DNA from: Callorhinchus milii
Taxonomy: Eukaryota
Length of the DNA stretch: 64,000 nucleotides
Direction: 5' to 3'
Assembly (NCBI RefSeq): GCF_018977255.1
Contig: NW_024704742.1
Coordinates: 73,968,001-74,032,000 of the forward strand
Below, one piece after another: positions 16,703 through 64,000 of the stretch (position 1 is its first letter; each line of letters starts with the position of its first letter). The notes beneath the pieces are model-generated. The model had not been told where the DNA came from. It made no database searches and was given only the letters and a program-made list of their open reading frames with translations. Both the position numbers and the translations under genes were made by a program.

Positions 16703-18030
16703 GTTACTGTCCTTTTTTTCTGAACTAGTTAAGAATGATTAAATTTCAGAACTATTAATAATTATACTTGCATTTGTTATAGCGCCTTATCACTTTGTCC
16801 AGAAGTGCTTCACATGATTTTACTGTGAACTGTAATGGCTGTGTATTGGAGAAAAACACAGCAGCCAATATGCACACAGTAATGTCCCACAAACAGCTAT
16901 GAAGTACATTGTGATTTGGTTCCTAATTGTGATCTAAAACATATTCTTGTGATAACCATTGTTCTCCCAGTTTAGTCAGTGTTTGGATTGGGATTGAATC
17001 CAATGAAATGTTAGAACTCTTGCCCACTTCAAATTAATTGGCTCCTCATCTCACTGTTGCCTTATTTCCTGTCAGCCTGACACAGTTGCTAGCACTCTTA
17101 CCTTTGGATCAGAAGGTTTAAAACCCACATTAATCTTATAGTTTAATCAAATCTGAATTCCAGTGCAGGTAATGAGGGAACAATTGATACACAGATTAAA
17201 TGAATGGAAAGATAATATAAAGATTGTACAAAGTCTACACAGAAAAAAAAGGGGAAAGGTCTGGGAGAAGTATATAAGTTTAACTAAATATAATAATTAA
17301 AACATAAGTGTGCACATACCTAAAGCATTTGATTATTATTACTGAAAGCCTGTTGTTGAGGTGGAACATTATTACAGTCATGCATTGCAGTCGCTCATAT
17401 TTAACTAAAACAAAATCTCTGTTAGTGCAGACTTGTGAGTTTGGGATAAATGAGAGGCTTTTTCTGTAAATTGTGCTTAAGAATGCTTGCTTTTGATTCT
17501 TATTTAAAAGGCTATATATATTAATTTGTACATATACAGTAAACCCCACCATCTGGCCACCACGTATCCAGATTTTGAAGTTAGCTGGACCAGGTTCGGA
17601 AAAAAGCTGCAGTTTTGAGCACTAAAAATCTACGCCGTGTTTTTAAACTCCCACCAGTCTATGTGGCGCCCACAGTTTGACTCTGATTTGTTTAACCATG
17701 AGCATCAGGTTGAATAGAGAACTATTGTTACTTTATTGTCTATTTATTTATTTAAAATTCTTTTTTATTCATTTTCAATGCTCGGTCGGATTGATTTTTA
17801 CTTATTTTCTTCTATTTTAAGTGTTTAGGCTCTGGAATCAGGCTACGTCACTATTAAGCGCTCTGAGACACTACCCTGCGTGCCTGGCACAAGTTGCTGT
17901 TGTTGTTTAATGTAAGGTTTAGCAGTTAGCCAGAATCTCTGGCTTGCCGGACCTGATCCCACCCCATTAGTCCGTTGGAGGTGGGCAGTAACTGCATGTT
18001 AACCATTGGGTTTTATCTGCTTGTTCACAG

Positions 18031-18142
18031 CTGGGGGTCTGGAGCAGACTTGTGGGGGTCTGATAATGACAGCCGGTTTGATAAATCCAAGCTTGATGAT
18101 GGTATACTTGAAGTCGTTGGGGTTACCGGCGTAGTACATATG
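18031..18142 (+). CDS. DGKQ: DGKQ exon (WGSGADLWGSDNDSRFDKSKLDDGILEVVGVTGVVHM)
   Basis: DDG.LEVVG motif; ttcacag acceptor, ATG|gtacaa donor. Confidence 0.96.
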
Positions 18143-19666
18143 GTACAAATTCATTGTTTTCTCTCATTATTAATTCCGCAACTCTCAAGATTGCTTCCCC
18201 AGTTCCTCTCGACACTCCTTTTTGGTTTTCAAAATCCACCTAAAATCCTATCTAATTGCTTTCAGTCACCTCTTCCCTCTCCCTCCCAGCTCTGATTCCC
18301 ATCAGTCTTTATAAAATTTGCATGTTTTATTTTAAAATGAGCTAGCTGGCTGCACACATGTGGATTCGGGTTCCACACCCCAATGCACTATACGCGCGCC
18401 ATAGTGTATATATTATAATATTATATTATATATGAAATTCCATAATATAATGAAACACATTATAATCGGGTTCTACTGTTCTATATTCTCCTTATTTTGA
18501 AATAAAGTGGTACACACTGCTGTTCCACAGACAAAAGGCATTTGTTTTCTTAGTTTTGTTTCAATTCCCAATATTTAACTGCTTTGTAGATTATATGTGA
18601 AAAAAAAGCTGAGCCCTGAAATTCCATATTTCATATTGAGCAGAATTGAAGAAAATTATTAAAGTTACATTCAGTCTTATTCAAAAATGAAAAAATGAAA
18701 AAACAGGTTCAAATTAAGGCTAAAAATAAGATTTTTAACCAATTCTGTGCAATCATAAGTAGACATACAATTGAAAATAAATCCCTTCTCTGCTCAACAC
18801 CATTATCATAAGGGTGAGGCTATAATTGATATAAATGCAAGGATTATTATGATATAAAGATTCTCATCGCAAAAACAGGTACTGTACAGCAGCCTTGTTC
18901 AGGAGAACTCAGGATTCATCATCGATTTGTTCCCAGGAGAAAAGAACCTACAGATTGGCTTTATTCTAGCCCTGTAATGGTACAGAACTCAAACCTCATA
19001 AATCTCACCTCAATTTCACCATTGCCCTCATTGACAATCTCCCTAACTCCACCATTCTCAAAGTTTATTCAAAATTCAAAGTCATTGATAACTCTGTCAC
19101 CCATATCCTCACCTGTACTAAACTCCATACCTCCATCAACACTGTCGTTGCCAGGCTCCATTGGCTCCCTGTTGCAGATTTCAAGATCCTCAAACTCGCC
19201 GTCAAATCATGTAATGCCTTTGCACCTCCCTACTTCTCCAACCGGCTCACACCCCATTCCCATACCCGTCACCTTTGCTCAGTCAGTTTGAATCTGCACA
19301 TCACTCAATCCCTCCGCTCCACCATCGACAGCCGTGCCTTTAGCTACTACGTCTTGAACCTCTTTGACTCCCTGTCTCAATCCCTCTGCCTCGTTGACTG
19401 TGCCTGCGATCTCCTCCCCTTTCACCTTGGCTCGACATCTATCTACACCATCGTTCGTGCCCTGGGATGATACTATATAAATGCAAATTATTATATTTTT
19501 TAAATCGCTTACAGCTACCAACAGAGATTAGCTGTTGTCCAAATTAGATATTTCTGTATGGTATTCCTTTGGGTTAAAATCTGTTCTAATTTGTTAACTG
19601 TTTATAGAATGAACTATCCATTTTCTGCAGACAGTAATTTAAGGAGGCATCTTCTGAATGTTGTAG

Positions 19667-32056: not shown

Positions 32057-32425
32057 TTAAAACTTTGGCCGATACAACAAAACATGTCCACTTAGGCATC
32101 CAGAGGCTAGCTGACAATGAGTGGGTGAAAACTTAGTTGTAAGTACAACATCACTGTGTGAATAAATAGTTCTGATCTCTTGCAGCTTGCTTGCATCTCT
32201 GGGTAAGCAATCACATAGTTCACTACATTGGGTGTCAAAACCTAACAAGCGAATCCCATAGCCATAAGGAGAGCAAATCAGTCGACCATCAGGACTGAAG
32301 CAAAGTTCTTTAATGTATCCACGGCCCACGTTAGCCTCTTCAATGTAATGCGTAAGAGAAAGGGAGCAACGAGGAGCTGCTGCCTGGACTGAAGGACCTT
32401 CCTGGAATTCATAGATGCAAGTCCA
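32057..32425 (-). CDS. DCAF10: DCAF10 exon 7, terminal (WTCIYEFQEG...GRGYIKELCFSPDGR...TTKFSPTHCQLASGCLSGHVLLYRPKF*)
   Basis: C-terminus nearly identical to vertebrate DCAF10/WDR32 as recalled; accag acceptor; TAA stop. Confidence 0.97.
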   Translation of the reverse strand, partial: WTCIYEFQEGPSVQAAAPRCSLSLTHYIEEANVGRGYIKELCFSPDGRLICSPYGYGIRLLGFDTQCSELCDCLPRDASKLQEIRTIYSHSDVVLTTKFSPTHCQLASGCLSGHVLLYRPKF

Positions 32426-33217
32426 CTGGTAACAATAAAAACAGAATGGAAGTTACTCTTCTGCATGCTTTTACATTCCTTATTATAAGAGAAGATGGCT
32501 TGATGTCTTCGTCCACTAGAAAATGACATTATGGTGTCTTTGAACAACATATTTTCAATTAACATAATGCTGCAGTTGCAGACATTCGAACTAGATAATA
32601 AACCTAAAATTGCTTTCCTGACATTTCTCTCAATATATTTCTGATATTGCATTGAATGAGGTGTTCAAAATATAAATTTTTAATTGAAGATAAATAGAGG
32701 TGACAGTATTTATAATAGGAAGTACTTCTCCCCTCCTCCAATCTAGATGAATTATTTGAGGAAAAAAACTATCCTGTAGAAGTTAATGAAATACAAGTTT
32801 ATTTTCGTCTGATAGAGAACTGCCCTTTCAGATAACCTGTCAACATAATAACTCAAATTGGCATCCCTTCGGACCCTGGATTTTGTTCAATTCAAGATGT
32901 GTATCTAGTCAGTAATGAAGATTTCCAAAAGTACTCAGCCAGAACCAAATCTTATTGGCTTAGATGGTTGGTTATGGATTGGAGTGCAGGATCAAAATAA
33001 ATAAATCTTTCTTACTCTTGTGCAACCATTTGTCAAACAGAACTGCAGTTGATCTTTGGAGGAGGAGAGTAGAGAGGAGTGGGGGTAAAGAATAGCTTTA
33101 ATTTTAAATACCTTCCACAAAATATGATTTCCTAATCTTTACTTACCTAGATGAGTAATGGATTAACATTAAAAAGAGTTCCCCCAATATCTAAATTCTA
33201 CTTTAAAAATCCCTCAC

Positions 33218-39379: not shown

Positions 39380-40410
39380 TAACAACAAAATTACATTTAT
39401 AGAGCACATTTCACGTCGGGAGGACATCCCAAGGCGCTGGACAGTCAGGGATCAGGACCAGAGCACAGGGGATAGGTGGGGTACGGGTGAGGGAAGGCAG
39501 AGAGGTGGGAGGGAGACCGAAGGCACGATCGAAGAGGGGGGGTCTTGAGACCGGCCTTGAAGGAGGCAAGGGAGGAAGCGAGGCGAAGGGACTGTGGGAT
39601 GGAGTTCCAGAGTGTGGGGGCAGAGAAGCTGAAAGCTCGGCCACCGATGGTAGGGCGGGTCGGGCAGGCGATATGGAGTGGGCCAGAGCCCGCTGAACGA
39701 AGGAAACGCGCAGGTTGGTAGGGAGTCAGCAGGTCAGAGAAGCAGAAGAGTACAAGCTGCAGAGTTTTGGATGATCTGCAGCTTGTGAAGGGAAGAGTTG
39801 GGAAGGCCGATGAAGAGGGAGTTCCCGTAATCGAGCCTTGATGTGACGAATGTGTGGGTGAGGGTTTCGGCAGCCTGAGGGGTGAGGCAGTGGCAGAGTC
39901 TGGCAATGTTGCGGAGGTGGTGGTAGGCAGTGCCGGTCATGGCCAGATGTGGGGGAGAAAGGACAGTTCAGGGTCAAACAAGATACCCAGATTCCTGACT
40001 GGTTTAGTGAGGTTGAGTGTGCAGCTGTTGATGCTGACACTGCCCGCGCCGATGGTGCGGAGGCACTAGCGCGAGCCAATCAGGAGGGCCTTGGTCTTGC
40101 TAACTTTCAGCTGGAGAAAGTTGTCCCTCGTTCAGGACTTGATGTCGGACAAGCAGTCGGTCAGGACTCCAGTTGTCCTGGAGTCGAGGGTGGAGGCAGA
40201 GAGATAGAGTTTGGTGTCATCCGCAAACATGTGGAAGTTTACCCCATGTCTGCGGATGACCAAGGGGGAGCATGTAGAGGGTGAAGAGGAGGGGACCGAG
40301 GACAGAGCCCTAAGGAACGCCACATGAGACGGTGCGGGGCTTGAGGAGAAGCTGTTTGCAACAACAACAAAATTACATTTATAGAGCGCCTTTCACGTCG
40401 GGAGGACGTG
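39380..40410 (-). mobile_element. L2 LINE 3' fragment plus an adjacent tail-only copy
   Basis: FHMFADDTKLY, SRLDYGNSL, QNSAA, GGRAFSFSAPTLWNSIP and tail. Confidence 0.9.
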
Positions 40411-40506
40411 GTTAAATCTACACAATCCATGTGTTCAACACCATGACTTATTTTAGTTTTAACACTCGACCAAAATAAAGGGATTGTTGGAAAAAATAAC
40501 ACCAAC

Positions 40507-40704
40507 CTATTTGTGTCCCATGTGATTACATTCCCATCAAATCCTGACGTCACTAAGAGTCTTGTGTTAGTGTCATATTCAATGTTCTTTACCCAGCTCG
40601 TATGGCCATGCAAGGTGCAGACCTTTGAGTTGAGGTTACGTAAATCCCATAGTGCTACTGTAGTATCATCAGAGCAGGTCGCAAATAGCCTGTTGTCAAG
40701 GAAC
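40507..40704 (-). CDS. DCAF10: DCAF10 exon 3, WD40 repeats (FLDNRLFATCSDDTTVALWDLRN...SGFDGNVITWDTNR)
   Basis: WD dipeptides and WDxR (DWD) box; tttag acceptor, AG|gttggt donor. Confidence 0.97.
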
Positions 40705-40859
40705 CTAAAAGAGAAGCATAAGATAAGCTGCATTTTGAGAACTACAACACATTCAATATTCTCAGAATTTAGCAGGAGTTACATTAAAAGATATACAATA
40801 AATGGCATCTGGCAAACTAACAAACATTTAAAGTATCAATACAACTGGTCTGCTCCCTA

Positions 40860-53120: not shown

Positions 53121-53740
53121 TATAATAATCCTTGCATTTGATGTAGCGCCTTATCACGTCTTTGAGACATCCCACCGAATGTATGTAAAATGAATTGACT
53201 TGTGTATTTTGTGGGCAAAACGCAGCAGCCAATTGCACAGAGCAGTGTCCCACAAACAGTCATGGATTGAGTGACCAATTTATTATTATTATTTCAAGGG
53301 ATTATCACCCCCAGAAAAGCAATACGCGAATCGACTAAAAATAAAAAGGTTCTTGCTTGCTTACTGCTTGGTAACCAGAGGCGTGAGGAGTAATTTGCCT
53401 AACGTTTCGCCCTGATGGGATTCAAACCCAAGTTCAATTGTTGGCCAGGACACCAGGAGAAACTCCCTTCGCTTTCTGAATAGTAACATGGGATCTTTAA
53501 TAACATCCACCTGAACAGGCAGATAGGACAATGCAACACACCCCCAGCACCGAATTGGAGTGTCACCTTAGACTAAATGATTCCAAGCCGCAACGTGGGG
53601 CTTGAACCCACAACCTTCTGGCTCAGGGACAAGAATGAACCCTTTGTCACTGATTTATAATAATAATCCTTGCATTTGATGTAGCACCTTATCACGTCGA
53701 GATGTCTCACAGAATGTACTGTAAAATGAATTGACTCTAA
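53121..53740 (-). mobile_element. Chimeric SINE (Deu 5' half joined to a second tRNA SINE) followed by a further SINE tail
   Basis: Two B boxes, Deu core and two (TTA)n tails, each preceded by aaccctttgtcactgattt. Confidence 0.75.
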
Positions 53741-54732
53741 GGTAACTTGCCTTACAGCCAAGTGCATTGAGCCAGGTTGACAGACAAAATCAGTAACGCA
53801 CTGCTGATTTCTTAAGAAAACTGATTTACTTAATACATTATTTGCCATTTACTCAGTACACATCAGTTCAGCCACATTATGGATACTACATATTTCACTG
53901 TGACACACAAAATGAGAGTTCAATTACAGAGATCTTTTATAATTTAGCAAGACATAGGTTTATAAAGCAGTTTATACCAAACTTAATTGACTTCTAAGTA
54001 CTGTAACGTTACGATCAAATGTCTAGACAGCAGTAAAAGCTATCTTCAGAGAGCTAAGAAATTCATGTGTAACAATATTTGCATTACTAAAATATCTTTG
54101 CGTAAAACAGCAAACCATCTTACTGAAAAGTGCAAAATTAAAAACATTGTGCACCACAAATGTAGCACAATTTATGTTAAACCTCAAATTACTGTATTCT
54201 GACCAAAACTAAAACTAGCATTTAATCTGAACATTTTATATTCAAATACATATCATGAGGAAGAAAAACATACTCGCTTCATTTGTCTTGTAACACCAGC
54301 ATCACCTAGAAAATAGTGAACTGTTTTCAGATTGATATATTCTGTGACAAGTTCTGTATTAAGCACTGGACTGCGTAGGAAATGCACACATTTATATAAT
54401 GGGCATATTTGTGTACCTCTGTATAAAACAGTACAAAATAACTGAGTAGACAGGACCAGAACCTGAGTAATAATGGCTCCCTTTGGTTTCCACTGCATTA
54501 TCTAAACCATAGTTTGTTTAGTTATTTCTGCAACTTTTAAAGAAGCAGTTCTAATTTTGCTTTGTTTGGGCGTTTACATGTAAAGCTCCCTCTTACTTTC
54601 TTTCCAGTTTTACTTTTAATTTACATTATACAGGACTAGCAAATGCACATTCCAAAAGTAAGATAACATGTTGTAATTTCCAAATAATCATCAGCATGAA
54701 GCTGAAAATACATGACAGGATTTCAGACAATT

Positions 54733-55005
54733 TTACTCCTTCATTTCCTTCTCCTTCGGTAATCGTCCCAACATATAAAACTCTTTGTTTGGACGCATAT
54801 CAGTAAGATGAGCTATTCGGTTGGACATTGAGTAAAATGCAGCAATGACACCTATATCCCAGGCATCCTCACGATCAAATCCATGCGCCTCTAGCTTTTT
54901 AAAATTGTTTTCTCCGATATTTTCTCCACAGCTGACAGCAAGAGCAAAATCCAACATAGCACGTTGTCGGTCATCCAAGTCAGCCAAATGCCAGTTCACT
55001 GCCAC
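54733..55005 (-). CDS. AhpD-like peroxidase-related protein, exon 5 (VAVNWHLADLDDRQRAMLDFALAV...AWDIGVIAAFYSMSNRIAHLTDMRPNKEFYMLGR...*)
   Basis: catag acceptor, TAA stop; resembles the C-terminal half of bacterial AhpD/CMD 'uncharacterised peroxidase-related' proteins. Confidence 0.92.
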   Translation of the reverse strand: MAVNWHLADLDDRQRAMLDFALAVSCGENIGENNFKKLEAHGFDREDAWDIGVIAAFYSMSNRIAHLTDMRPNKEFYMLGRLPKEKEMKE

Positions 55006-55092
55006 CTATGAGAAGCAGCCAGAACAGAGAAAACGGTTTATAACCAGACATTTGGCTTTGCAAACGTGAATATTTCATTGCGTGGTACTTAC

Positions 55093-55223
55093 TTGATCTG
55101 CCAGAGTTGGGTTTTTGGAATATATGCGATGGACTGCACTGTGGGCAATCACACAGTATGGACAGCTATTATTAGCACTTGTTGCCACAATGATGAGTTC
55201 TCTATCTGCTTTGCTGAGTTGGC
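55093..55223 (-). CDS. AhpD-like protein, exon 4, catalytic core (LSKADRELIIVATSANNSCPYCVIAHSAVHRIYSKNPTLADQ)
   Basis: E-x11-CxxC-x3-H AhpD signature; tttag acceptor, CAA|gtaagt donor. Confidence 0.94.
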
Positions 55224-56257
55224 CTAAACAAAAATGGGAGACAAGACAAGGAAAATTATACACAATTATTTTTTGCAAGAATCGGATCTATTAAAAGCTC
55301 CTAGTGTCAATAGTTTACTCATAAATAATAATGTTTTCTACATTTGGGTAATTTCAATGGTGCTTTGAACCATTCATATGCAGAATTAACTGGTAGAGCA
55401 CTTCCAGTTAGGTTATGTTAAACTCACCTGTAGCATTAGAACTGGTGTCCTCTCCCCTCCTCAGTATCAATTCCCTAACCCCCTTTTCCTAGTTATGTTG
55501 AACATCTTAAGATGAGGATTTTGTTGTTGGCTCTGGTCCCTGAAGTCTTATTTTCCTCAAACTTGGACATCTGTTCTTCATTCATTCTCTCTCTTGCACA
55601 CGCACACACACGCGCACGCACACACGTGTATATTTTCATACTAGAGAAGTGCCTCTCAGGTTTGCAACTCTGGCTCCTGGACCCTTCCTTCCAGCCTTAT
55701 GCTCCTCCCCCCTACTACCCTGTATTCATGACATGTTTGGAAGCTGTTGCCACCAAAGTTGATCACGAAAATCAAAAGGATCGGAGGTATTTGCTGTGAT
55801 GGAGATGGTAGAGGAAGATGGAGATTGGTGAAAACATTAGGAAACAAATATACTGGCTACCAGGCTTAGATCTCAGGCCAGTGTCTGCTTGAAAGTAAAC
55901 TTTACAAGATTCTGCAAGCAGAGGTCTGCATCTCTCTAATTTGAGATGCCATGGCTTTACACCCACATCCCCTCCCACATCCCCCACTACACTAGCCCCG
56001 ACATCCCCTACCTCCCCCCCACTACACTGCCGCCCCTCCTCCATGGCTTTATGCAGACCCAAGGACACTGAAGGCCACAGAGACGATAAGAGAGTGTGGC
56101 AAGAATTAAATAACAGCACAGAACTCATGATAAAAAGCCTGGCTTTAGAGATACGTCTGGGACTGAACACCCTTTAACTTCAGGAGAATGGTTTCTCTGT
56201 CAGGTTTCTCACAGCTTTTTTTATAAAAAAAGAATGTTACCGAGAGACAAAATTTTT

Positions 56258-56335
56258 AAACCCAGCTGGTAGAACATTTTGTTTTAAAAGTGAAATATTT
56301 TACTTTTAAAACAAAATGTTCTACCAGCTGGGTTT
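56258..56335. repeat. 78-bp near-perfect palindrome
   Basis: 34-bp arms are exact reverse complements around the centre gaaatatttt. Confidence 0.95.
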
Positions 56336-56826
56336 CAAAAAACGTAGGCCAGTACCTGCAAAGAAACATGAAATCAGACTTCTCTACTCTTAGCAGAACA
56401 AAATATCTCATCAATATCTACTTGTGTATATTTAATAGAGTAAACCAGCTAAACCAGCTAAAGTAGAGTAAACAAGTTACGCACATGCTCAACAATGCAG
56501 CATCACTGAGTCTCATTTGCAAATAAACTCTTGAAGAGTAAATAAGCTAAAGTTCTCCATTAAAACAAAAGGTTGCAGTAATTGGTAAAGCATTAGTAAT
56601 TAAAGGCAGAATAATAACCATTTATACCATGTACAATGACATACATTTCTCAATGTCCCTAAAAGACATAGCCATTCAGATTTTGATCAAATAAAACCAC
56701 TATTTTACCTCTTTCAACTCTCAGTGCTTTTTTTCCCAATACTGCATTTTTTCAAACATAAAACACGTAGACTGAAAAATACGACAGTTGAGTGAGCTCT
56801 GGATTTGGGGATAACTTTCACCATAC

Positions 56827-56926
56827 CTGCTTCTTTATTCATAAGTGCATTGTAGTAGGCAAAGAAGGCTCGAAATTCAGTCGGTCGATGTGAAAGCACT
56901 TTAAATACATTTGGCAAAAAACCACT
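56827..56926 (-). CDS. AhpD-like protein, exon 3 (SGFLPNVFKVLSHRPTEFRAFFAYYNALMNKEAG)
   Basis: tttcag acceptor, G|gtatgg donor; 'GF.PNVF..L.HRP.EFRAFFAY..ALM' family motif. Confidence 0.93.
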
Positions 56927-58539
56927 CTGAAAACGAGTAATGTGAATATACCATTAGTAAACACATCAGATTCAATACACATTTCTACAGACTGCTTTTT
57001 TAAAAGTACAATTTAAATGATAAACAAGGGAAAATAGATACTACTGGAGAAAGCGGGAGAGCAAAATAGAGAGGGACATCAGGACAGACACCCAGAGAGA
57101 GAGATGTAGAGGAAGAGAAGTAAGAATCAGACAGTCATCTTAACAAAGCCAATGGAAAGGTAGATAGAGATGAAGAGTTTCCATAACCAAATAATCTGGT
57201 TTGAGAGGTGACGTGAAAGGATCTGTACAAATGTAATTTGTTGCTGTTGAAAAGACTGAAGTTATTGAAGAAAGGTCATTTTATCCTCTCCTCTCAAAAA
57301 AAACCCTAATCTTTCCAACATGCTAATTAAACACAAGTACAATCCCATAGCACAGGGTGGTCCAACCTTTTGGCTGCCGTGGGCCGGATTCCCTATTTGA
57401 GAAAAGGCCGCGGGTTGCATTCAGGGCGGTCCAGCACACTCTGGTGTCCTCAAGCCTCTTGCCTCCGAGGCCTAAAACTCTCCAGAATTAGGTAAGCGGG
57501 ATGTGTCCCTCCAGGGAGAGTGTGCATTACATTCCAACAATCTATCTCTGAGATTTCCACGTGTAGGTGGGATGCATGGAAATCTCAGTTTGGTTTGGAT
57601 ACTCTTAAGCATGGGGATGGGTTTCCACATGTGTCAGACACCCGGATGAATGAAGAAAGCATGAAACATTGAAGAGTTAAAATACAAGTTCTATATGTAA
57701 ATACTGCTGGATGCAATGTGACATTTAAATATACCACTCATATCTCCTGTCACCAGGGGCTGAGGAGAGCACTGTGCTTGCATTGTTAAGTGTATGTACA
57801 GAGACCTCTACTAATCACCATTAGTTTAATAATATTGAAAGATATTCCTTTTTGGTGGACCACTCAAAAGGCTTTTAATGGGCTATTTTTGTGCAGATGA
57901 TGAATGGATGTACAATGCTACAGTGATGTGAACTAATTAGTCTAATTCCTCATGTAGTTTTCAGCCAAACTCCAGGGCAAATCAGTTCACAACTATGCAT
58001 CTCAAACCCAATTAATAAAGATTTTGCAACATTTTGTTGCAATTTCCAGTCCAACCAATATAAATAAGGCATTAAGGCAGTTTTTAAAATCTACTTATTT
58101 TGCAGCAGAATACATTCAAATGCAATTTCAACTGAGATTTACAGTTATACTAAAATGTTTTATTTTATGTTTATTTAAAGAAACACTTTAAAAAAAACTA
58201 TCAGAGGTAGTGACTGTTGGCAAACAGGACAGCTATTGGATTCAGCAAAGCCACAAAACTGCCATGGTGTGAAATTCTAATTAATCTGGAGGAAAACTAG
58301 CTAGAACGGAGAATTTGCATTTTCACTGCAATAGCATCTTTAATGATCACCTGAAAAACAGAATGATAAGATCTGTCTAACCTCTTTGTAAATATATTAA
58401 ATGTATTAAGAGAGCAATGCATGTTGAAAATGCTTTCAGCATGCATTGCTCCCTTAATACATTTTTCAAATGGTTAAAATTTATTTTTAGTGAACTATTT
58501 CTGAGAAAGAAAGGGAAGAATCTTAGTTCTGGTAAACAG

Positions 58540-58850
58540 AGCTTAGTATCCTGGAACCATAGGAATTCATTTGGCCCATCGTATCTGTGCTGGCTCCCTC
58601 AAGAGCAATCCTTCCAGTCCCACCTACCTGCTCTTTCCCCATATCCCTGTATCTGACTGTTTTTAAGGTATTTGTCGAATTCCCTTTTGAAGCACAATAT
58701 GAATTTTGCCTCAACTACCACTCCTGGCAGGGTATGCCATATCTTAACTACTCTGTGCATGAAAACATTTCTCCATTTGCTCATTTACTATTTCAATCGT
58801 TATCCTCTAGCTACTGACACTCCTATAATTAACTTCAAATGGTTCCAGGT
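58540..58850 (-). mobile_element. CR1 3' fragment
   Basis: RNVFMHRVVKIWHTLPGVVVEA...FKREFDKYL...QGYGERAG. Confidence 0.85.
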
Positions 58851-59185
58851 CCGTCATAGTAAAGAATAACAAAGCATTTTATCCCCAACTTCAGAAGAAC
58901 ATCTTCAATTACATGAGTGTGATATTAATACTTTCTACCTAAGCTGCCTGCATGCGTGTGTGGGTTGGTGAAAAGGCCACTGACCCCAGTGTCACTAACA
59001 TTGTCACCAGGTGGTGTGCAAACTTTCCAGAGATCGAGTCAGAGCAGTGGAAAATCTCACCAGGATCAATGGTGAACAACAAATTTCAAAATCTTTTTAT
59101 GTTCCACAACTTAAATGTAAAACTCAGCACGAACATCCAATAAAGCACCAAACATACTTAATACAGAATAAATAATAATACTCAC

Positions 59186-59359
59186 TTTAGTTTCAATCTC
59201 CTCCATGAGTTCAACAATATCATAGGGGAGATCCTTTTTATATGGGATGGGATATCGCCCAATGGTTTGTTCAGGTTCCGATGACTTTGTGCAGTATTCC
59301 ATTGAGCTTGCAGGAAGGTTCATTGGTCTTGTCCATCGTGAGGTCAACCCAATCAAAGG
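59186..59359 (-). CDS. AhpD-like protein, exon 2 (PLIGLTSRWTRPMNL...IGRYPIPYKKDLPYDIVELMEEIETK)
   Basis: ttgtag acceptor, AAA|gtgagt donor; phase 0-0; 'I.RYP.P...DLP.DI' resembles the N-terminus of bacterial homologues. Confidence 0.88.
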
Positions 59360-60364
59360 CTACAACGTAAATGATGAAAGAACAATGACAAAAGACGACA
59401 GCAAATCCACCCTTTCATTCTTACAACCCACACTTGTTGAATAATAATAATCCTTGCATTTTATATAGCACTTTTCACATCTTCTAGACGTCTCAAAGCT
59501 CTTAATGTCAACTAATGGGGCGGGGGGAGATAAGCAAGGTTTCTTTGGAGCTGAACTGGCTCCAAGGTGACATGATGGCAATGGAATGTCAGAATCGAGC
59601 CAGGCCTCAGTGACAGACTTGATAGTCCAGTTCCAGATCCAGGTACGTCTGCAATATTCCAGGGCACTGCTGATGACAGCACAGACAGCCTGATTCATCA
59701 GCAGGAATTGGAAGGGCAGACCAGTCACTGGCCAGAGGTTCTTCGCATTCAGCTCCTGTTAACCCTGTAAGTCAAAGCCTCAACAAGCTGGGTCCTTAGT
59801 GGTCCTAATTGGACAAAGCTTTGTTTTTTTTAGCTGGTTAGATTGCAGCAGTACCCAATGCTTAGACAGTATGTCATTTATCTCTGAGATATTCCTTTAC
59901 CTATATTTTCTCTTGTAATTAGGAAGCACATTTAAAAATGTGTGTTTCATATTTGGACCATGCAACAATAATGCTGGATAATATCTCAGAACACTGTACA
60001 GACAAGATGAGGAAGTCCTAGGGCTGCAAAGTATTTGTAGGGGAGAGTAAGGACCTTGAAATAATCTACTGAGAGCCAGAAGAGCTTGGCAAGGACTGGA
60101 GCGATGGGCATGAGAAATTTGGTGTGGTAGAGGAAGCAGGCATTGGCACAATACAAAATATTGCAACATTACAAGATTCTGTCAATGTATGTTGAGGTTT
60201 CAGCAAGAATCAGGTCGTGGACTAACTTTCTCCAGTTGAATGTCAATATTTTGTATGTGTATTGTTTTCAGTGGATTAAATATTTAAAAAAATCTAGTTC
60301 TCAATTAAACTACTGTAGTCATAAGATAATGAATACAGTATGCAGCCCAGTGTCATGTGAGAGC

Positions 60365-61310
60365 CGCATTATAGTTTAGTCAGTCGCACTCCCACCTCTG
60401 AGTCAGTCGATTTTAGGTTGGGACTTTTGAGTTCAGTCTAAGCTGATACTCCAGTGCTGTTCTTGGAGAGAGCTACTGTCTGAGGTATCTGATACATTGA
60501 ACCAATTTTCCACCCACACATCCCGGTGGATATTAAAGATCCCATGGTACTAGTTGAAAAGACAAGGAAGTTTCTCCCCCGTGTCCTGGCCAACAATCTC
60601 CCTCCACCCTCGACTCGAGGACCACTGCTGTCCTAACGGATTGTCAGTCACACATTAAGTCCTGTATGAGCGCTAACTTTTTCTAGTTGAATGTCAACAA
60701 GACCATGGCCCTACCGCTTGGCTCCTGTCAGCGCCTCCACACCTCAGGTGCTGACGCCATCGCACTCCATGGATGCACACTCCACCTCCCTGGGCCAGCG
60801 TGGAACCTTGGCATCTGGTTTAAACCACATCCGTGCCATGACCTGTTCTGCCTTCACCCACCTCCGCAACTCCGCCACTGCCTCTCCCCTCATGCCAAGA
60901 CATCTAGGCTCAACTATGCTAACTCCCTGCTTGTTGGTCTTCCCAACTCTTCCCTGTACAAGCAGCAGATCATTCAGAACGCTGCAGCTCGTGTCCTCTC
61001 CTGAACCAAGCTCCGTGACCTCATCACCTCCACCCTCGCCCGGCTCAACGGGCTCCCCATCCCCAGAGGATACAGTTCAAAATCCTCGTCGTCGCCTTCA
61101 AAGCTCCTCCCTACCCTCTGTGACCTGCAAACTCCATATAGACCCGTCCGCTCCCTCTGCTCAGCGGGCTCCAGCCACTCCACCATCGGAGGTCAGGCCA
61201 TCAGACATCCTGCCCCCCCCCCCATCCTTTGAACTGGTGTCCAAATGGTGACCGTCCAGCGCCTCGGGATGTCCTCCTGCCATGAAAGGTGCTGTCACAG
61301 GTGTGACTTG
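60365..61310 (+). mobile_element. Deu SINE 5' part (~60365-60598) joined to an L2 3' fragment (~60598-61310)
   Basis: Deu core up to gtgtcctggccaacaat, then SRLNYANSLL, QNAAAR and an L2 tail. Confidence 0.8.
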
Positions 61311-61339
61311 ATGTAGTGACTGTTAGTAATTGTTCAGTG

Positions 61340-61695
61340 GCCCTGCCCTGCCCTGCCCGCCTGCCCTACCCTGCCCTGCCTGCCCTGCCCGCCTGCCCTG
61401 CCGCCCTGCCCTGCTTGCCTGCCCTGCCTGCCCTGCTTGCCTGCCCTCCCTCCCTGCCCTCCCCTGCCTGCCCTGCCCTCCTTGCCCTGCCCTCCCTGCC
61501 TGCCCTGCCTGCCCTGCCCTGCTTGCCCTGCCCTCCCTGCCTGCCCGCCCTGCCTGCCCGCCCTGCCTGCCCTGCCCTGCTTGCCCTGCCCTGCCTGCCC
61601 TCCCTGCCTGCCCTGCTTGCCTGCCCTCCCTGCCCTGCCTGCCCTCCTGCCCTCCCTGCCCTCCCTCCCTGCCTGCCCTCCCTGCCTGCCCTGCA
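61340..61695. repeat. (CCTG/CCCTG)n satellite in intron 1 of the AhpD-like gene
   Basis: Direct reading. Confidence 0.95.
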
Positions 61696-61878
61696 GACAC
61701 AGTGACCGCGGCACCGCCGCTCGCTCCCCTTCAGCCCTCTCAAGGTGAGGGGCGATCACACGCACGTTGTGATCTATCACCGCGGACACAGACACAGCCC
61801 CACTGTCGGCCGAGCGGGGAGGCCCGGGGGCCCCGGGGGGGGGACAGGCTCTCAGCCACACACTCTGAAGCTACTCAC

Positions 61879-61920
61879 AGACGCGGCGCGGACAGCGGCC
61901 AGGCAGCGGGCCCGGTACAT
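61879..61920 (-). CDS. AhpD-like protein, exon 1 (MYRARCLAAVRAAS)
   Basis: GCCGCCATG Kozak context in a CpG-rich patch; TCT|gtgagt donor; 42 nt, phase 0, in frame with exon 2. Confidence 0.82.
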
Positions 61921-61991
61921 GGCGGCCTGGTCCCGGCCTCCCCTCCGGCAGTGACTGACTGCCTGAGCAACTGCATCCGGGAGCAAACCCC

Positions 61992-62250
61992 GCCTGACCC
62001 CTCCCCCTGACTCCTCCCCTCCCCTGACCCCTCCCCCTTCCCCTCCCCCTGACCCCTCCCCCCCTCCCCCTGACCCCTCCTCCCCCTCCCCCTGACCCCT
62101 CCCCCTGACCGCTCCTCCCCTCCCCCTGACCCTGACCCCTCCCCCTCCCCCTGACCCTCCCCCTGACCGCTCCCCCCTCCCCCTGACCCCTCCCCCCCCT
62201 CCCCCTCCCCCTGACCCCTCCCCCTCCCCCCGCCTGACCCCTCCCGCCCC
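61992..62250. repeat. C-rich (CCCCT/CTGACCCCT)n repeat upstream of the AhpD-like start codon
   Basis: Direct reading. Confidence 0.95.
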
Positions 62251-62577
62251 TATATAAAAACATACAGCACACACGCATTGCACTGTGTTAAGCTATAGAA
62301 TACGCTCAATAGAAAATATTAAGCATTTAACTCCATTTCCATTAACCATATATATTTCACTCACAAAATGCACAGTCACTGCACTCTACAGTATATTCCG
62401 TGAAGTGCTTTCACACGTCTTGAAGACCCGATAAGGCGCTCTATCAAATGCAAGGATTATTAGTATGATATGAATATTAAAATGTTAAACGTTTACAGAG
62501 AAATAGGAATTGTGGCTGATTTTCCCTGCTGTTGGCAGCACAGAAACCCGATTGGAGAAGCTCATGGTGGGAGTTAG

Positions 62578-63075
62578 TAGTGTGACCATGTACAGTGTCC
62601 AGTCTGACCATGTACAGTGTGACCAGGTACAGTGTGACCGTGTACAGTGTAGAGTGTGACCAGGTACAGTGTGATCATGTACAGTGTACAGTGTGACCAT
62701 GTACGGTGTGACCATGTACAGTGTAGAGTGTGACCAGGTACAGTGTGACCATGTACAGTGTACAGTGTGAGCAGGTACAGTGCGACCATGTACAGTGTAC
62801 AGTGTGACCATGTACAGTGTACAGTGTGTCCAGGTACAGTGTGACCATGTACAGTGTACACTGTGACCATGTACAGTGTGACCAGGTACAGTGTATATGT
62901 GACCATGTACAGTGTACAGTGTGACCAGGTACAGTGTACAGTGTGACCAGGTATAGTGTGACCATGTACATTGCATAGTGTGACCATGTGCAGTGTGACC
63001 AGGTACAGTGTACAGTGTGACCAGGTACATTGCACAGTGTGACCATGTACAGTGTAGAGTGTGACCAATGTACTG
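62578..63075. repeat. Minisatellite of 15-bp (gtgtgaccatgtaca) and 7-bp (gtgtaca) units
   Basis: Direct reading; abuts the ETS motif at 63081. Confidence 0.95.
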
Positions 63076-63080
63076 TCTGA

Positions 63081-63179
63081 CCGGAAGTCACCTTGTGACC
63101 GATGTAAAGACTACATCTCCCATGAAGCCCCGCGGGCGGAGTGGTCGCGCAGGCGCACTGCGAGTAAAGAAGATGGCGG
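63081..63179 (+). promoter_or_regulatory. Compact housekeeping-type promoter
   Basis: CCGGAAGT (ETS/GABPA, 63081), ACTACATCTCCCATGAAGCC (ZNF143/THAP11, 63110), GGGCGGAG (Sp1, 63134), GCGCAGGCGC (NRF1, 63147), AAGATGGCGG (YY1, 63170). Confidence 0.8.
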
Positions 63180-63210
63180 ATGTGCCGGGGAAGCAGTTGA
63201 TGCAGAGAAG
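63173..63210 (+). CDS. First coding exon of an unidentified gene (MADVPGKQLMQR...), continuing beyond the window
   Basis: AAGATGG strong Kozak context directly after the promoter motifs; AAG|gtgaga donor; too short to identify. Confidence 0.6.
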
Positions 63211-63388
63211 GTGAGAGGCGGCGGCTGCTCACTGTGTGCTCCCCGGGCAGGGCATCCCGGGCCGGGCATCCCGGGCCGGACTGGCACCAGGCGAGGCCGT
63301 GTCTGTTAATGAAGCAGTTTGTGTTGTCCATACACTGCGCTGCCCTCCCTGACTCTGCTCTGAATGTCCCGGCATTCATCTCACATCC

Positions 63389-63389
<1 letters not shown>

Positions 63390-63419
<30 letters not shown>

Positions 63420-64000
63420 TACATTTGTAAAGCGCCTTTCACGTCTGGAGGGGGAGGGGAAGGTGGTGGCTGATGGCATGGTCGAAGAGGAGGGTCTTGA
63501 AGCGGGACTTGAAGGAGGTTAGGGAGAGGGTGAGGCGGAGTGATTGGGGGATGGAGTTCCAGAGGTTGGGAGCAGAGTGGCTGAAGGCTCTCTCACCAAT
63601 GGTGGGGCGGGTGGGTCGGGGGATGTGGAGCAGGACAGAGCCGGCTGAGCGGAGGGAGCGGGCGGGTTGGTAGGGGGTTAGGAGGTCACAGAAGTAGGGT
63701 GGGGCGAGACCATGGAGGGCTTTGTAGGAGAGGACCAGGATCTTGAACTGGATCCTCTGAAGGATAGGGAGCCAATGGAGTCGGACGAGAATGGGGGAGA
63801 TGGGGTCACGGAGTTTGGTGCGGGAGAGGACACGGGCTGCAGAGTTCTGGATTATCTGCAGTCTGTGGAGGGAGGAGTTGGGAAGGCCGACAAGCAGGGA
63901 GTTTGCATAGTCGAGCCCGGAGGCAATGAAGGCATGAACAAGAGTTTCAGCAGCCTGAGGGGTGAGGTAGTGGCGGAGTCAGGAGATGTTACGGGGGTGA
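63390..64000 (-). mobile_element. L2 LINE 3' portion, running out of the window
   Basis: (AAC)n tail; reverse-strand SGLDYANSLL, QNSAAR, LHWLP, AFSHSAPNLWNSIP. Confidence 0.9.

What the first reader, a model, noticed from the sequence alone, without database searches (positions are those of the whole stretch)
54733..61920. Intact, spliced vertebrate gene for a bacterial-type AhpD-family peroxidase-related protein
Seen: five exons (61920-61879, 59359-59186, 56926-56827, 55223-55093, 55005-54733) with GT-AG sites and matching phases give an uninterrupted 239-aa ORF containing ELIIVATSANNSCPYCVIAH. Known: E-x11-CxxC-x3-H is the AhpD/carboxymuconolactone-decarboxylase active-site signature, and AhpD recycles AhpC in bacteria. 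From recall, the chain from 'IGRYPIP' to 'EFYMLGR' is collinear with proteobacterial 'uncharacterised peroxidase-related' proteins. I know of no human orthologue; sestrins share only the fold. Unannotated fish homologues probably exist. Inference: this is an uncharacterised thiol-redox or detoxification enzyme kept in some aquatic vertebrates, from old horizontal transfer or patchy loss. Introns full of host repeats argue against contamination.
Basis: partly seen in the sequence, partly recalled or inferred. Interest (0 to 1): 0.8.

Follow-up and report, generated by a model that had tools for sequence, protein, structure and literature searches.

The report
Animal AhpD-like thiol enzyme gene
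A real, expressed five-exon gene of a chimaera fish encodes a bacterial-type AhpD-like thiol enzyme, probably sent to mitochondria, that many animals other than mammals keep and that nobody seems to have studied.

Summary
Five minus-strand exons with GT..AG borders give a 239-aa ORF containing ELIIVATSANNSCPYCVIAH. Spliced contigs in 4 of 4 public runs carry these junctions. The gene is single-copy in its genome.

It is not unannotated. The protein matches RefSeq XP_007890083.1 (Callorhinchus milii, "uncharacterized protein LOC103177642") at all but one residue, and orthologues are named si:ch211-175m2.5.

It belongs to NCBIfam TIGR01926 "peroxidase-related enzyme" (185.9 bits, cut-off 81.8). 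It is about 56% identical to crystal structure 2PRR, the top structural match of human Sestrin2. It is not AhpD proper.

Named orthologues come from sharks, bony fishes, amphibians, reptiles, birds, amphioxus, hemichordates, echinoderms, molluscs and cnidarians. No named row in the three lists of 120 is a mammal. So it is not confined to aquatic vertebrates.

Animal sequences form one clade nested among proteobacterial ones, which fits an ancient bacterial origin with later losses.

An Arg-rich, acid-poor extension of about 45 residues, absent from the bacterial proteins, suggests mitochondrial import (inferred).

Likely function: a two-cysteine thiol-dependent peroxide or disulfide reductase. 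No paper on the animal gene turned up.

The parts
61879..62001 (-). Exon 1. The 5'UTR runs from 61921 to at least 62001. The CDS is 61920-61879 (codons 1-14, MYRARCLAAVRAAS), the start of the predicted presequence.
   Evidence: Searches give the ORF and show the first in-frame ATG in GCCGCCATG. In one search, contigs of X4 and X8 reach 62001 and 61988, and the joint 59359|61879 is present in 3 of 4 runs.
59360..61878 (-). Intron 1 (2519 nt, GT..AG). It holds a GCCCT-type tandem array at 61340-61694 and interspersed repeats at about 59339-59900.
   Evidence: One search shows the joint that skips 2519 nt with CT..AC ends on the + strand, and very high summed contig depth at 59339-59900. One search shows the tandem array.
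59186..59359 (-). Exon 2 (codons 15-72). Positions 59261-59359 encode the rest of the N-terminal extension (residues 15-47). The conserved core starts at GRYPIP.
   Evidence: alignment A1. In one search the exon lies in the spliced contigs.
56927..59185 (-). Intron 2 (2259 nt, GT..AG), with a repeat at about 57372-57652.
   Evidence: the joint 56926|59186 is present in 4 of 4 runs. Summed contig depth at 57372-57652 reaches 21588, as an interspersed repeat would give.
56827..56926 (-). Exon 3 (codons 73-105 plus the first base of codon 106).
   Evidence: In one search it matches TIGR01926 positions 27-57..
55224..56826 (-). Intron 3 (1603 nt, GT..AG, phase 1).
   Evidence: The joint is present in 4 of 4 runs.
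55093..55223 (-). Exon 4 (rest of codon 106 to codon 149). It carries the catalytic helix-turn-helix.
   Evidence: In one search it hits PF02627 at 32.2 bits. In one search it matches TIGR01926 positions 61-102 and TIGR00778 at 37 bits against a cut-off of 27.8.
55141..55200 (-). Active-site motif E114-x11-C126-P-Y128-C129-x3-H133 (ELIIVATSANNSCPYCVIAH).
   Evidence: The paper read names the matching residues E74, C86, Y88, C89 and H93 in 2PRR. The motif is kept in 193 of 200 animal relatives.
55006..55092 (-). Intron 4 (87 nt, GT..AG, phase 0).
   Evidence: The joint is present in 4 of 4 runs.
54034..55005 (-). Exon 5. The CDS is 55005-54733 (codons 150-239 plus TAA). The 3'UTR runs at least to 54034, and one contig reaches 54000, the edge of the stretch laid. 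The poly(A) site was not determined.
   Evidence: In one search it matches TIGR01926 positions 104-178. table 8. In one search the next minus-strand AATAAA downstream of the stop is at 53279-53284.
61993..62245 (.). CCCCTC-type tandem array at and upstream of the transcript's 5' end, inside a GC-rich stretch (GC 0.55-0.58 over 60001-64000). This is the probable promoter region.
   Evidence: In one search the contigs start at about 61988-62001.

Best explanation
This is a single-copy, expressed nuclear gene of a holocephalan fish. Its protein differs at one residue from Callorhinchus milii XP_007890083.1. It encodes a 239-aa member of the TIGR01926 'peroxidase-related enzyme' branch of the AhpD/CMD superfamily.

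The core (residues about 45-235) is an all-helical 2PRR-type fold. It carries a C126-P-Y-C129 dithiol on a helix-turn-helix, with E114 and H133 as the proton relay.

The first 45 or so residues are an animal-specific extension, rich in Arg, Ser, Ala and Leu and poor in acidic residues. It most likely acts as a mitochondrial import presequence.

The protein most likely works as a two-cysteine thiol oxidoreductase. One cysteine attacks a hydroperoxide, or an oxidised partner protein. The second cysteine resolves the intermediate into a disulfide. A mitochondrial reductant then re-reduces that disulfide; the candidates are dihydrolipoamide on lipoylated proteins, or thioredoxin 2.

The gene is the orthologue of zebrafish si:ch211-175m2.5. 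It was present before cnidarians and bilaterians split, derives from a proteobacterial gene, has since been inherited vertically, and has been lost in some lineages, apparently including mammals.

Shown: gene structure, splicing, family, fold, motif conservation, distribution, and a single animal clade nested among bacterial sequences.
Inferred: mitochondrial location, the chemistry, the reductant, and absence from mammals.
For: Gene:
- Searches give the exons, the ORF and the motif.
- One search shows spliced contigs in 4 of 4 runs from 3 studies.
- Searches find only this locus in the 991.5-Mb genome.

Identity: one search finds 238 of 239 residues equal to P0001 (A13V). One search gives the RefSeq name.

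Family:
- TIGR01926 scores 185.9 bits against a cut-off of 81.8.
- PF02627 scores 45.2 bits against 23.
- PDB 2PRR gives E 1e-67 over residues 42-235.

Fold: the AF2 model has pLDDT 87.4, above 90 over roughly residues 50-230 (10-residue block means). Foldseek puts 2PRR on top, with TM 0.97 normalised to the target, rmsd 1.0 and 56% identity. It is followed by 6K40, 2PFX, 3C1L and 2OYO.

Catalytic residues: E-x11-CxYC-x3-H is present in 193 of 200 animal relatives. Passages of PMC4674687 name the same residues in 2PRR.

Function of a relative: passages of the review PMC8945050 say that a D. radiodurans DR1765 (6K40) deletion is H2O2-sensitive and that CxxC mutants complement worse.

Constraint: the core is 74-82% identical across jawed vertebrates and 51-69% identical to invertebrate orthologues. 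The N-extension is only 10-51% identical.

Extension:
- 168 animal proteins carry 30-80 residues ahead of the core. 124 of them have no acidic residue in the first 30, and 161 have at most one.
- In the first 30 residues Arg is 11.8% and D+E 1.1%. In the core the figures are 6.6% and 14.4%.
- In 104 mostly metagenomic, bacterial-type homologues of about 190-210 aa, the core starts at median residue 7.
- The model shows a short helix at residues 2-11 and then low confidence.

Origin:
- Animal rows form one clade with SH-aLRT 99 in two trees: 33 of 64 rows (30 named animals plus 3 unnamed representatives that fall among them), and 28 of 62 rows.
- Vertebrates form a clade at 99 and 100.
- The animal clade sits inside a 52-row clade (support 99) that also holds 15 proteobacterial genome sequences.
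- 16 of 301 sampled Pseudomonadota genomes hold a homologue at E <= 1e-59, 48-57% identical.
- Bacterial-type proteins from metagenomes are 61-67% identical to the Nematostella protein.
Against: - The mitochondrial reading rests on composition only. No targeting predictor was available. The hydrophobic-moment test gave nothing: 0.534 observed against 0.581 +/- 0.132 for shuffles, with 62% of shuffles at least as high.
- No biochemical datum exists for any animal member. Within TIGR01926 only DR1765 has a phenotype, and I saw that only in a review's passages.
- No conserved partner gene was seen beside the 15 closest bacterial loci within +/-1.5 kb. There was no peroxiredoxin and no reductase, so neither substrate nor reductant can be read from context. 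The ORFs sent there were the longest stop-to-stop frames, and only 5 of the 15 central CMD genes were themselves recovered. A short neighbour gene could have been missed in the same way.
- Absence from mammals rests on names in three lists of 120 best rows out of 952, 8000 and 7980 hits. Part of the rows carry no name, and no mammalian genome was searched.
- The trees are quick searches with SH-aLRT only. The careful search did not finish in two tries. The sister group of the animal clade is unresolved (supports 8-83). Other eukaryotes were not sampled on purpose.
- The runs that show splicing are only guessed to be RNA.
Confidence: 0.8

Rival explanations
1. Same enzyme, but the N-terminal extension is not a mitochondrial presequence. 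The protein would be cytosolic, would go to another compartment, or would be dual-localised through initiation at the internal Met27 or Met34.
For: The hydrophobic-moment test gave no signal. The extension is poorly conserved (10-51% identity). In-frame Met27 and Met34 lie upstream of the core. No predictor or experiment was available.
Against: The composition is typical of matrix presequences across 168 orthologues from cnidarians to birds: Arg 11.8%, D+E 1.1%, S+T 15.1% and A+L 24% in the first 30 residues. There is no long uninterrupted hydrophobic stretch as in a signal peptide (sequence). The C-terminus (...KEKEMKE) shows no obvious peroxisomal tripeptide (the motif rule is recalled).
Confidence: 0.3
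2. It works like AhpD proper. It would be a dedicated reductase that recycles a peroxiredoxin (in animals a mitochondrial PRDX3/PRDX5-type enzyme), using dihydrolipoamide supplied by DLD and lipoylated E2 proteins, as in M. tuberculosis Lpd-SucB-AhpD-AhpC.
For: It shares the CxxC/Glu/His motif. A review's passages describe AhpD being reduced by lipoamide proteins and reducing AhpC, and Ohr/OsmC in Corynebacterium. Mitochondria hold all the would-be partners (established knowledge).
Against: It is not a member of the AhpD family: TIGR00777 scores 17.8 bits against 191.95, and Foldseek gives 1KNC only rank 45 at E 0.24. None of the flanking ORFs that matched a Pfam family at the 15 closest bacterial loci was a peroxiredoxin. 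Mammals manage their mitochondrial peroxiredoxins without it.
Confidence: 0.2
3. The CxxC does other thiol chemistry. Options are reductive dehalogenation as in the marine bacterial debrominase Bmp8, or detoxification of an electrophile or disulfide stressor that mammals do not meet.
For: Foldseek lists Bmp8 (6OHJ/6OHI) at ranks 20 and 24, with TM 0.71-0.75 normalised to the target. The family's substrates are unknown. The listing of PMC7119367 ties ahpD-like genes to allicin (disulfide stress) resistance (listing only).
Against: Bmp8 is only 19-21% identical and far behind the TIGR01926 structures. Distribution includes land birds and reptiles, so a marine-only substrate is unlikely.
Confidence: 0.1
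4. The gene did not enter animals by horizontal transfer. It descends from the mitochondrial endosymbiont or an early eukaryote, and has been lost from most eukaryotic lineages.
For: The animal clade is nested among Pseudomonadota sequences, as a mitochondrion-derived gene also would be. The product looks mitochondrial. The sister group is unresolved. The unnamed representatives P0222/P0223 and P0204 lie near the animal clade; P0222 and P0204 carry N-terminal extensions and might be eukaryotic.
Against: No fungal, plant, protist, sponge, ctenophore or choanoflagellate name appears among the 3 x 120 listed rows. Bacterial proteins are as close to Nematostella (61-67% identity) as other animal phyla are (57-65%). 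That would be an unusually slow clock for a gene 1.5 billion years or more in eukaryotes (inference).
Confidence: 0.25
5. Bacterial contamination of the assembly, a recent transfer into this fish lineage, or a dead pseudogene.
For: The only support is the high identity to bacterial proteins (56% to 2PRR).
Against: The locus has four GT..AG introns with host repeats, and spliced transcripts. It sits on a large contig of a 991.5-Mb assembly (the window starts at base 73,968,001), between WD40, DGK and LINE sequences. Orthologues follow the animal tree. The ORF and motif are intact, and the core is 74-82% identical across jawed vertebrates.
Confidence: 0.01

Closest known systems
YP_296737.1 of Ralstonia (Cupriavidus) eutropha JMP134, PDB 2PRR, 'alkylhydroperoxidase AhpD core: uncharacterized peroxidase-related protein' (TIGR01926)
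   Same: Collinear over residues 42-235, E 1e-67. 55-56% identical, with the model superposing at rmsd 1.0 and TM 0.97 normalised to the target. It has the same E/C/Y/C/H residues.
   Different: The bacterial protein has no N-terminal extension and its gene has no introns. Its own function is untested; it is a structural-genomics entry, called 'uncharacterized' in PMC4674687.
DR1765, AhpD-like protein of Deinococcus radiodurans (PDB 6K40)
   Same: Same TIGR01926-type fold: E 1.1e-28 and Foldseek TM 0.94-0.95 normalised to the target. It has the CxxC motif. It is the only relative with a phenotype: the deletion is H2O2-sensitive and complementation depends on CxxC. I saw this in passages of the review PMC8945050; the primary paper was not read.
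   Different: Only 32% identical. It is bacterial and cytosolic. Its reductant and substrate are also unknown.
AhpD of Mycobacterium tuberculosis (PDB 1KNC; TIGR00777)
   Same: Same superfamily, and the same E-x11-CxxC-x3-H helix-turn-helix chemistry.
   Different: Different family: TIGR00777 scores 17.8 bits against 191.95, and Foldseek gives rank 45 at E 0.24. The motif sits at a different place in the chain (PMC4674687 passages). AhpD is encoded beside ahpC (recalled). No peroxiredoxin was seen beside the 15 close bacterial homologues.
Sestrins (PF04636; human Sestrin2, PDB 5CUF)
   Different: Sestrins have two fused domains and a single catalytic Cys, and they also regulate mTORC1. This protein has one domain and two Cys, and scores below the PF04636 cut-off. 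The same genome has four sestrin loci as well, so it is a separate gene and not a sestrin.
Bmp8 debrominase (PDB 6OHJ)
   Same: AhpD/CMD-like fold that uses cysteine chemistry (entry titles).
   Different: 19-21% identity and TM 0.71-0.75 normalised to the target. Nothing suggests a halogenated substrate here.

Membership tests
NCBIfam TIGR01926 (peroxid_rel, 'peroxidase-related enzyme') | Whole-protein score above the curated cut-off of 81.8 bits, over the full 178-position profile | tested here: met
   P0001, which equals the window's protein but for A13V, scores 185.9 bits over profile positions 4-178. The window's exons 3, 4 and 5 score 30.2, 50.1 and 62.1 bits at collinear positions.
NCBIfam TIGR01926 (peroxid_rel) | 2PRR-type all-helical fold of about 190 residues | tested here: met
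   AF2 model with pLDDT 87.4. Foldseek gives 2PRR TM 0.97 normalised to the target and rmsd 1.0. The other TIGR01926-type structures (6K40, 2PFX, 3C1L, 2OYO) come next.
AhpD/CMD superfamily (Pfam PF02627; TIGR00778 AhpD core domain) | Domain score above the cut-offs, and the E-x11-CxxC-x3-H helix-turn-helix motif | tested here: met
   PF02627 scores 45.2 bits against 23. TIGR00778 scores 38 bits against 27.8. The motif lies at E114...H133.
AhpD proper (TIGR00777, M. tuberculosis type) | Score above the curated cut-off of 191.95 bits | tested here: not met
   Exon 4 alone scores 17.8 bits. The family is not listed for P0001 at E <= 0.01. 1KNC is only Foldseek rank 45.
AhpD proper (TIGR00777) | Functional or genomic coupling to an AhpC-type peroxiredoxin | tested here: inconclusive
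   None of the ORFs with a Pfam match in the +/-1.5 kb flanks of the 15 closest proteobacterial loci was a peroxiredoxin. The flanks are short, the ORF choice was crude (only 5 of the 15 central CMD genes were recovered), and coupling in animals cannot be read from gene order.
4-carboxymuconolactone decarboxylase (PcaC-type CMD enzymes) | Closest similarity to decarboxylase structures and a place in a protocatechuate pathway | tested here: not met
   The decarboxylase structures 2Q0T and 4G9Q are only Foldseek ranks 43-44, with E about 0.2 and rmsd above 10. The pathway context was not tested.
Sestrin (Pfam PF04636, PA26) | Score above 29.4 bits, and a two-domain architecture of about 445 profile positions | tested here: not met
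   The score is 18.2 bits, and only profile positions 23-93 match. The protein has a single domain. Four true sestrin loci lie elsewhere in the genome.
Nuclear-encoded mitochondrial matrix proteins | Cleavable N-terminal presequence: positively charged, acid-poor, amphipathic | tested here: inconclusive
   Composition fits in 161 of 168 orthologues, which have at most one acidic residue in the first 30, and the median K+R count is 5. Amphipathicity is not above shuffles. No predictor or proteome data were available.

The most novel reading that the evidence does not exclude
Most non-mammalian animals carry a stand-alone, mitochondrial, two-cysteine AhpD-like reductase. It would have been taken from a proteobacterium before cnidarians and bilaterians split, and it would link mitochondrial dihydrolipoamide/NADH (or Trx2) to hydroperoxide or peroxiredoxin reduction. 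That would be an antioxidant arm that mammals have lost. It would also be the surviving single-domain form of the protein from which the two-domain sestrins arose by duplication.
Probability: 0.15. Interest if true: 0.7.

Novelty: new member of a known kind. Interest (0 to 1): 0.4.

Why it matters
Zebrafish, Xenopus and chicken all carry this gene (si:ch211-175m2.5 and unnamed LOC entries), yet my searches found no paper on it.

If it is a mitochondrial thiol reductase, the redox network of the main non-mammalian vertebrate models differs from the mammalian one by a whole enzyme. That bears on the use of these animals in oxidative-stress and ageing work.

It is also the closest animal relative of 2PRR, the bacterial protein that best matches both halves of Sestrin2. 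It therefore offers a simple two-cysteine comparator for the disputed enzymatic activity of sestrins, and a test case for an ancient bacterium-to-animal gene transfer followed by intron and presequence gain.

As a genome feature it is ordinary. The gene model is already in RefSeq and the family is known.

Tried and rejected
- Bacterial contamination, recent transfer and pseudogene were rejected.
- The look-up of sequencing runs listed no holder on record as RNA. The ten 'RNA?' rows are guesses. I laid four of them, and only the junctions are used from that call. Depth is not used.
- The hydrophobic-moment test of the N-terminus showed no excess over shuffles.
- Gene neighbourhoods of 15 close bacterial homologues showed no shared partner. 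Neighbours included acyl-CoA dehydrogenase, ETF-QO, HerA-type helicase, ABC transporter, flavin reductase and others. The ORF choice was crude: only 5 of the 15 central CMD genes were themselves picked up.
- PTPN9 as a neighbour was suggested by the fused Polypterus model P0059. tblastn of P0059 hits only the CMD exons in this window.
- The search for related loci with a single protein gave just one bacterial locus, because it reaches only close relatives.
- The listing of cluster members on 20 representatives named only Haliotis, Biomphalaria and Ottowia/Burkholderiales clusters. The rest are unnamed metagenome proteins.
- The careful ML tree with bootstraps did not finish in two 300-s runs. 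Only quick trees are reported.
- One literature search was badly framed and gave nothing usable.
- The search of earlier findings returned nothing for the place and one unrelated note by sequence.
- dN/dS could not be computed, because no orthologous coding DNA was available. Protein identity was used instead.
- The poly(A) site was not fixed. There is no minus-strand AATAAA between the stop codon and 53284.

Full report
**Observation**

They are 61920-61879, 59359-59186, 56926-56827, 55223-55093 and 55005-54733 on the minus strand. They measure 42, 174, 100, 131 and 273 nt, 720 nt in all. Every internal border has AG upstream and GT downstream.

The joined frame gives 239 codons and TAA. The start codon lies in GCCGCCATG and is the first in-frame ATG after the upstream stop at 62292. 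The peptide ELIIVATSANNSCPYCVIAH is encoded at 55141-55200. Written out it is E114-x11-C126-P-Y128-C129-x3-H133.

From then on I used single-exon references and the database protein P0001.

**Expression and copy number**

The look-up of sequencing runs listed 14 runs of one organism that hold the stretch. Ten of them are guessed, not recorded, to be RNA. I laid four of these (X1, X2, X4, X8; three studies).

- All four hold contigs that skip 55006-55092, 55224-56826 and 56927-59185.
- Three of the four (not X2) also skip 59360-61878.
- All skipped stretches end CT..AC on the + strand, which is GT..AG on the gene's strand.
- One 1497-nt contig runs from 54034 to 62001, which places at least 81 nt of 5'UTR and about 700 nt of 3'UTR.

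The own genome has 991.5 Mb in 1762 contigs, and the window starts at base 73,968,001 of contig C1. It matches P0001 and TIGR01926 only at this locus. The spliced contigs are therefore best read as mRNA and not as a retrocopy.

The introns hold sequence with very high summed contig depth (57372-57652 and 59339-59900) and a GCCCT-type tandem array (61340-61694). The window also carries a LINE reverse-transcriptase fragment, WD40-repeat exons and a diacylglycerol-kinase exon. This is host DNA, not contamination.

**Identity**

A search with exon 5 alone, against longer proteins, returned 952 hits, of which 120 are listed. The best is XP_007890083.1, 'uncharacterized protein LOC103177642' of Callorhinchus milii, 239 aa. 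The window's protein equals it at 238 of 239 residues (A13V).

Many orthologues are named 'uncharacterized protein si:ch211-175m2.5', after the zebrafish gene. UniProt calls them 'Carboxymuconolactone decarboxylase-like domain-containing protein'. So the gene model and its fish orthologues are annotated. What is missing is any study of them.

- The term 'ch211-175m2.5' occurs in 0 papers of the library.
- The 8 papers with 'carboxymuconolactone decarboxylase' and 'zebrafish' are, by title and abstract start, about bacteria or microbial degradation (listing only).
- The 8 papers with sestrin, AhpD and 'phylogenetic' do not, by title, treat an animal AhpD-like gene (listing only).

**Family and fold**

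- P0001 scores 185.9 bits on NCBIfam TIGR01926 'peroxidase-related enzyme' (cut-off 81.8) over profile positions 4-178.
- It scores 45.2 bits on Pfam CMD (cut-off 23).
- The window's exons 3, 4 and 5 hit TIGR01926 separately and collinearly.
- Against solved structures the best match is 2PRR of R. eutropha, E 1e-67 over residues 42-235 against 4-197. Next come 2PFX, 3C1L, 2OYO and 6K40.
- An AlphaFold2 model built on 45 aligned sequences (A1) has mean pLDDT 87.4. Confidence is above 90 over roughly residues 50-230 (10-residue block means) and about 50 over 1-40, apart from a short helix at 2-11.
- Foldseek puts 2PRR first, with TM 0.97 normalised to the target, rmsd 1.0 and 55-56% identity.
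- M. tuberculosis AhpD (1KNC) is only rank 45, and the true decarboxylases are ranks 43-44.
- TIGR00777 (AhpD proper) scores 17.8 bits against a cut-off of 191.95.

The protein is therefore a member of the TIGR01926 branch of the AhpD/CMD superfamily. It is neither AhpD itself nor a decarboxylase.

**Link to sestrins**

All five have counterparts here: E114, C126, Y128, C129 and H133.

P0001 also matches the sestrin profile PF04636 weakly, at 18.2 bits and E 1.3e-3, below the cut-off of 29.4. A relative, P0200, reaches 28.7 bits. Sestrin2 (5CUF) is Foldseek rank 38. The genome has four separate sestrin loci.

So this gene is not a sestrin. It is the animal protein closest to the bacterial form that sestrins resemble.

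**Distribution**

- Named rows come from chimaera, sharks and rays, bichir, sturgeon, gar, bowfin, teleosts, caecilians, salamanders, frogs, crocodile, turtles, squamates, many birds, starfish and a crinoid.
- A search with the Patiria protein (8000 hits, 120 listed) adds hemichordates, amphioxus, corals, Nematostella and a chiton.
- Cluster look-ups add abalone and Biomphalaria.
- A search with the Nematostella protein (7980 hits, 120 listed) adds Actinia.
- In none of the three lists of 120 does a named row come from a mammal, arthropod, nematode, sponge, fungus, plant or protist. Part of the rows carry no name.

Absence from mammals is likely but is inferred from lists, not shown by a genome search.

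**Origin**

Two quick ML trees were built (LG+C20+F+G4, SH-aLRT only).

The first tree has 64 rows: 30 named animals chosen from about 200, 33 of the 150 listed representatives, and one bacterial locus. The animals form one clade with support 99. It has 33 rows, three of which are unnamed representatives that fall inside molluscs or vertebrates. Vertebrates form a clade at 99 and cartilaginous fishes at 98.

The second tree has 62 rows: 28 animals, 20 sequences from sampled Pseudomonadota genomes, and 14 representatives.

- All 28 animals are again one clade (99).
- The four cnidarian rows fall outside a 24-row bilaterian clade (support 90). The joint cnidarian branch itself has only support 41.
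- Vertebrates have support 100.
- The animal clade lies inside a 52-row clade (99) that also contains the 15 closest proteobacterial sequences.
- Its immediate sister is unresolved.
- The careful search with bootstraps did not finish in two runs.

In 301 sampled Pseudomonadota genomes, 43 have a match at E <= 1e-30. Sixteen have one at E <= 1e-59 with 48-57% identity. Bacterial-type proteins of about 193 aa from metagenomes are 61-67% identical to the Nematostella protein. Where they carry names, these are Betaproteobacteria or Casimicrobiaceae. Amphioxus and starfish are about equally close to Nematostella (57-65%).

Taken together, the gene has one origin in animals, before the cnidarian-bilaterian split. 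Its source is a proteobacterial lineage. It then gained four introns and an N-terminal extension and was passed on vertically, with losses.

I cannot settle whether the source was a free-living bacterium (horizontal transfer, which I favour) or the mitochondrial ancestor with wide loss in other eukaryotes.

**Constraint**

The catalytic motif E-x11-CxYC-x3-H is present in 193 of 200 animal relatives (P0001-P0200). The seven exceptions are as follows.

- Two squamate proteins have the first Cys replaced (P0011 Varanus, P0086 Podarcis).
- One Python model (P0016) did not match the pattern, and I did not examine it further.
- Four are short or odd models (P0082, P0084, P0093, P0105).

The core (residues 48-235) is 74-82% identical between the chimaera and other jawed vertebrates, 51-69% identical to invertebrates, and 59% identical to the closest bacterial-type representative. 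The first 47 residues are only 10-51% identical. This is the pattern of a protein under strong purifying selection. dN/dS itself could not be computed.

**How it probably works**

What is shown is a 2PRR-type fold with a conserved CxxC, Glu, Tyr and His.

What is known of relatives comes from two papers, each seen only as passages.

- Deletion of the D. radiodurans TIGR01926-type protein DR1765 makes cells H2O2-sensitive, and CxxC mutants complement worse (review PMC8945050).
- M. tuberculosis AhpD reduces peroxides and AhpC, and is itself reduced through lipoamide proteins (same review).
- Sestrin2's AhpD-like domain reduces cumene hydroperoxide through its one cysteine (PMC4674687).

I therefore infer a two-cysteine cycle. 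One thiolate attacks a hydroperoxide or an oxidised partner. The second cysteine forms the disulfide. An external reductant restores the dithiol.

The animal proteins add 38-66 residues ahead of the core in the named orthologues listed.

- Across 168 proteins with an extension of 30-80 residues, the first 30 have 11.8% Arg and 1.1% Asp+Glu. The core has 6.6% and 14.4%.
- 124 of the 168 have no acidic residue there, and 161 have at most one.
- The 104 mostly metagenomic, bacterial-type homologues checked start the core at median residue 7.

This composition is that of mitochondrial matrix presequences (established knowledge). My hydrophobic-moment test gave no support, and no predictor was at hand. 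I put mitochondrial location at about 0.6-0.7.

If the protein is mitochondrial, dihydrolipoamide/DLD or Trx2 are the obvious reductants (inference).

Gene neighbourhoods of 15 close bacterial homologues share no partner and show no peroxiredoxin. The specific 'recycles AhpC' model therefore has no support from context. That scan was crude, as noted under evidence against.

**Verdict**

It is wrong on annotation status and on the breadth of distribution, and it is imprecise on the family.

This is a new, unstudied animal member of a known family. The gene model itself is already in public databases. Interest is moderate. It lies in the enzyme's apparent absence from mammals, its likely mitochondrial location, and its position next to the bacterial protein that sestrins most resemble.

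Noticed in passing
P0023 (Erythrolamprus reginae, 381 aa), P0011 (Varanus), P0086 (Podarcis), P0016 (Python); not in the window: Squamate reptiles seem to have a second copy in which the first Cys of the CxxC is replaced (HTPYC, KVPYC). One snake model carries two CMD domains in tandem in one polypeptide, the first without and the second with the full CxxC. This recalls the duplication and cysteine loss proposed for sestrins. It could also be a merged gene model.
   Followed up: partly
P0209 (Biomphalaria glabrata, 384 aa) and P0059 (Polypterus senegalus, 792 aa); not in the window: These are fused gene models. One joins BED zinc fingers to a CMD domain in a snail. The other joins a PTPN9-like phosphatase to a CMD domain in bichir. 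PTPN9 sequence is not in this window. Whether the fusions are real or annotation merges was not tested.
   Followed up: partly
window 57372-57652 and 59339-59900: These stretches inside introns 2 and 1 collect thousands of contigs, with summed depth up to 56,490 in the runs laid. Abundant interspersed repeats, transcribed or present in many transcripts, would behave this way. The repeat family was not identified.
   Followed up: no
window 61340-61694, 61993-62245, 62579-63082: Three tandem arrays were found. A GCCCT-type array of about 79 copies lies in intron 1. A CCCCTC-type array lies at the transcript's 5' end. A 22/37/59-bp minisatellite lies upstream. They produce the long artefactual low-complexity ORFs seen. 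GC is 0.55-0.58 over 60001-64000.
   Followed up: partly
window 2972-3613 (-), 32060-32452 (-), 40242-40778 (-), 17957-18292 (+): Other coding pieces lie in the window: a reverse-transcriptase (RVT_1) fragment of a LINE-like element, two WD40-repeat exons on the minus strand, and a diacylglycerol-kinase accessory-domain exon on the plus strand. The neighbouring genes were not reconstructed.
   Followed up: no
window 54252 and 54333 (3'UTR); codon 13 in exon 1: Some differences look like polymorphisms. Contigs of X1 and X4 lack 3 bases at 54252 and read C for T at 54333. The window encodes Ala13 where the RefSeq protein has Val.
   Followed up: no
L009 and L015 (unnamed Pseudomonadota genomes): Two of the 15 closest bacterial homologues lie next to an acyl-CoA dehydrogenase and an ETF-ubiquinone oxidoreductase. 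Both have mitochondrial counterparts in fatty-acid oxidation. Two of 15 is too few to mean anything yet.
   Followed up: no
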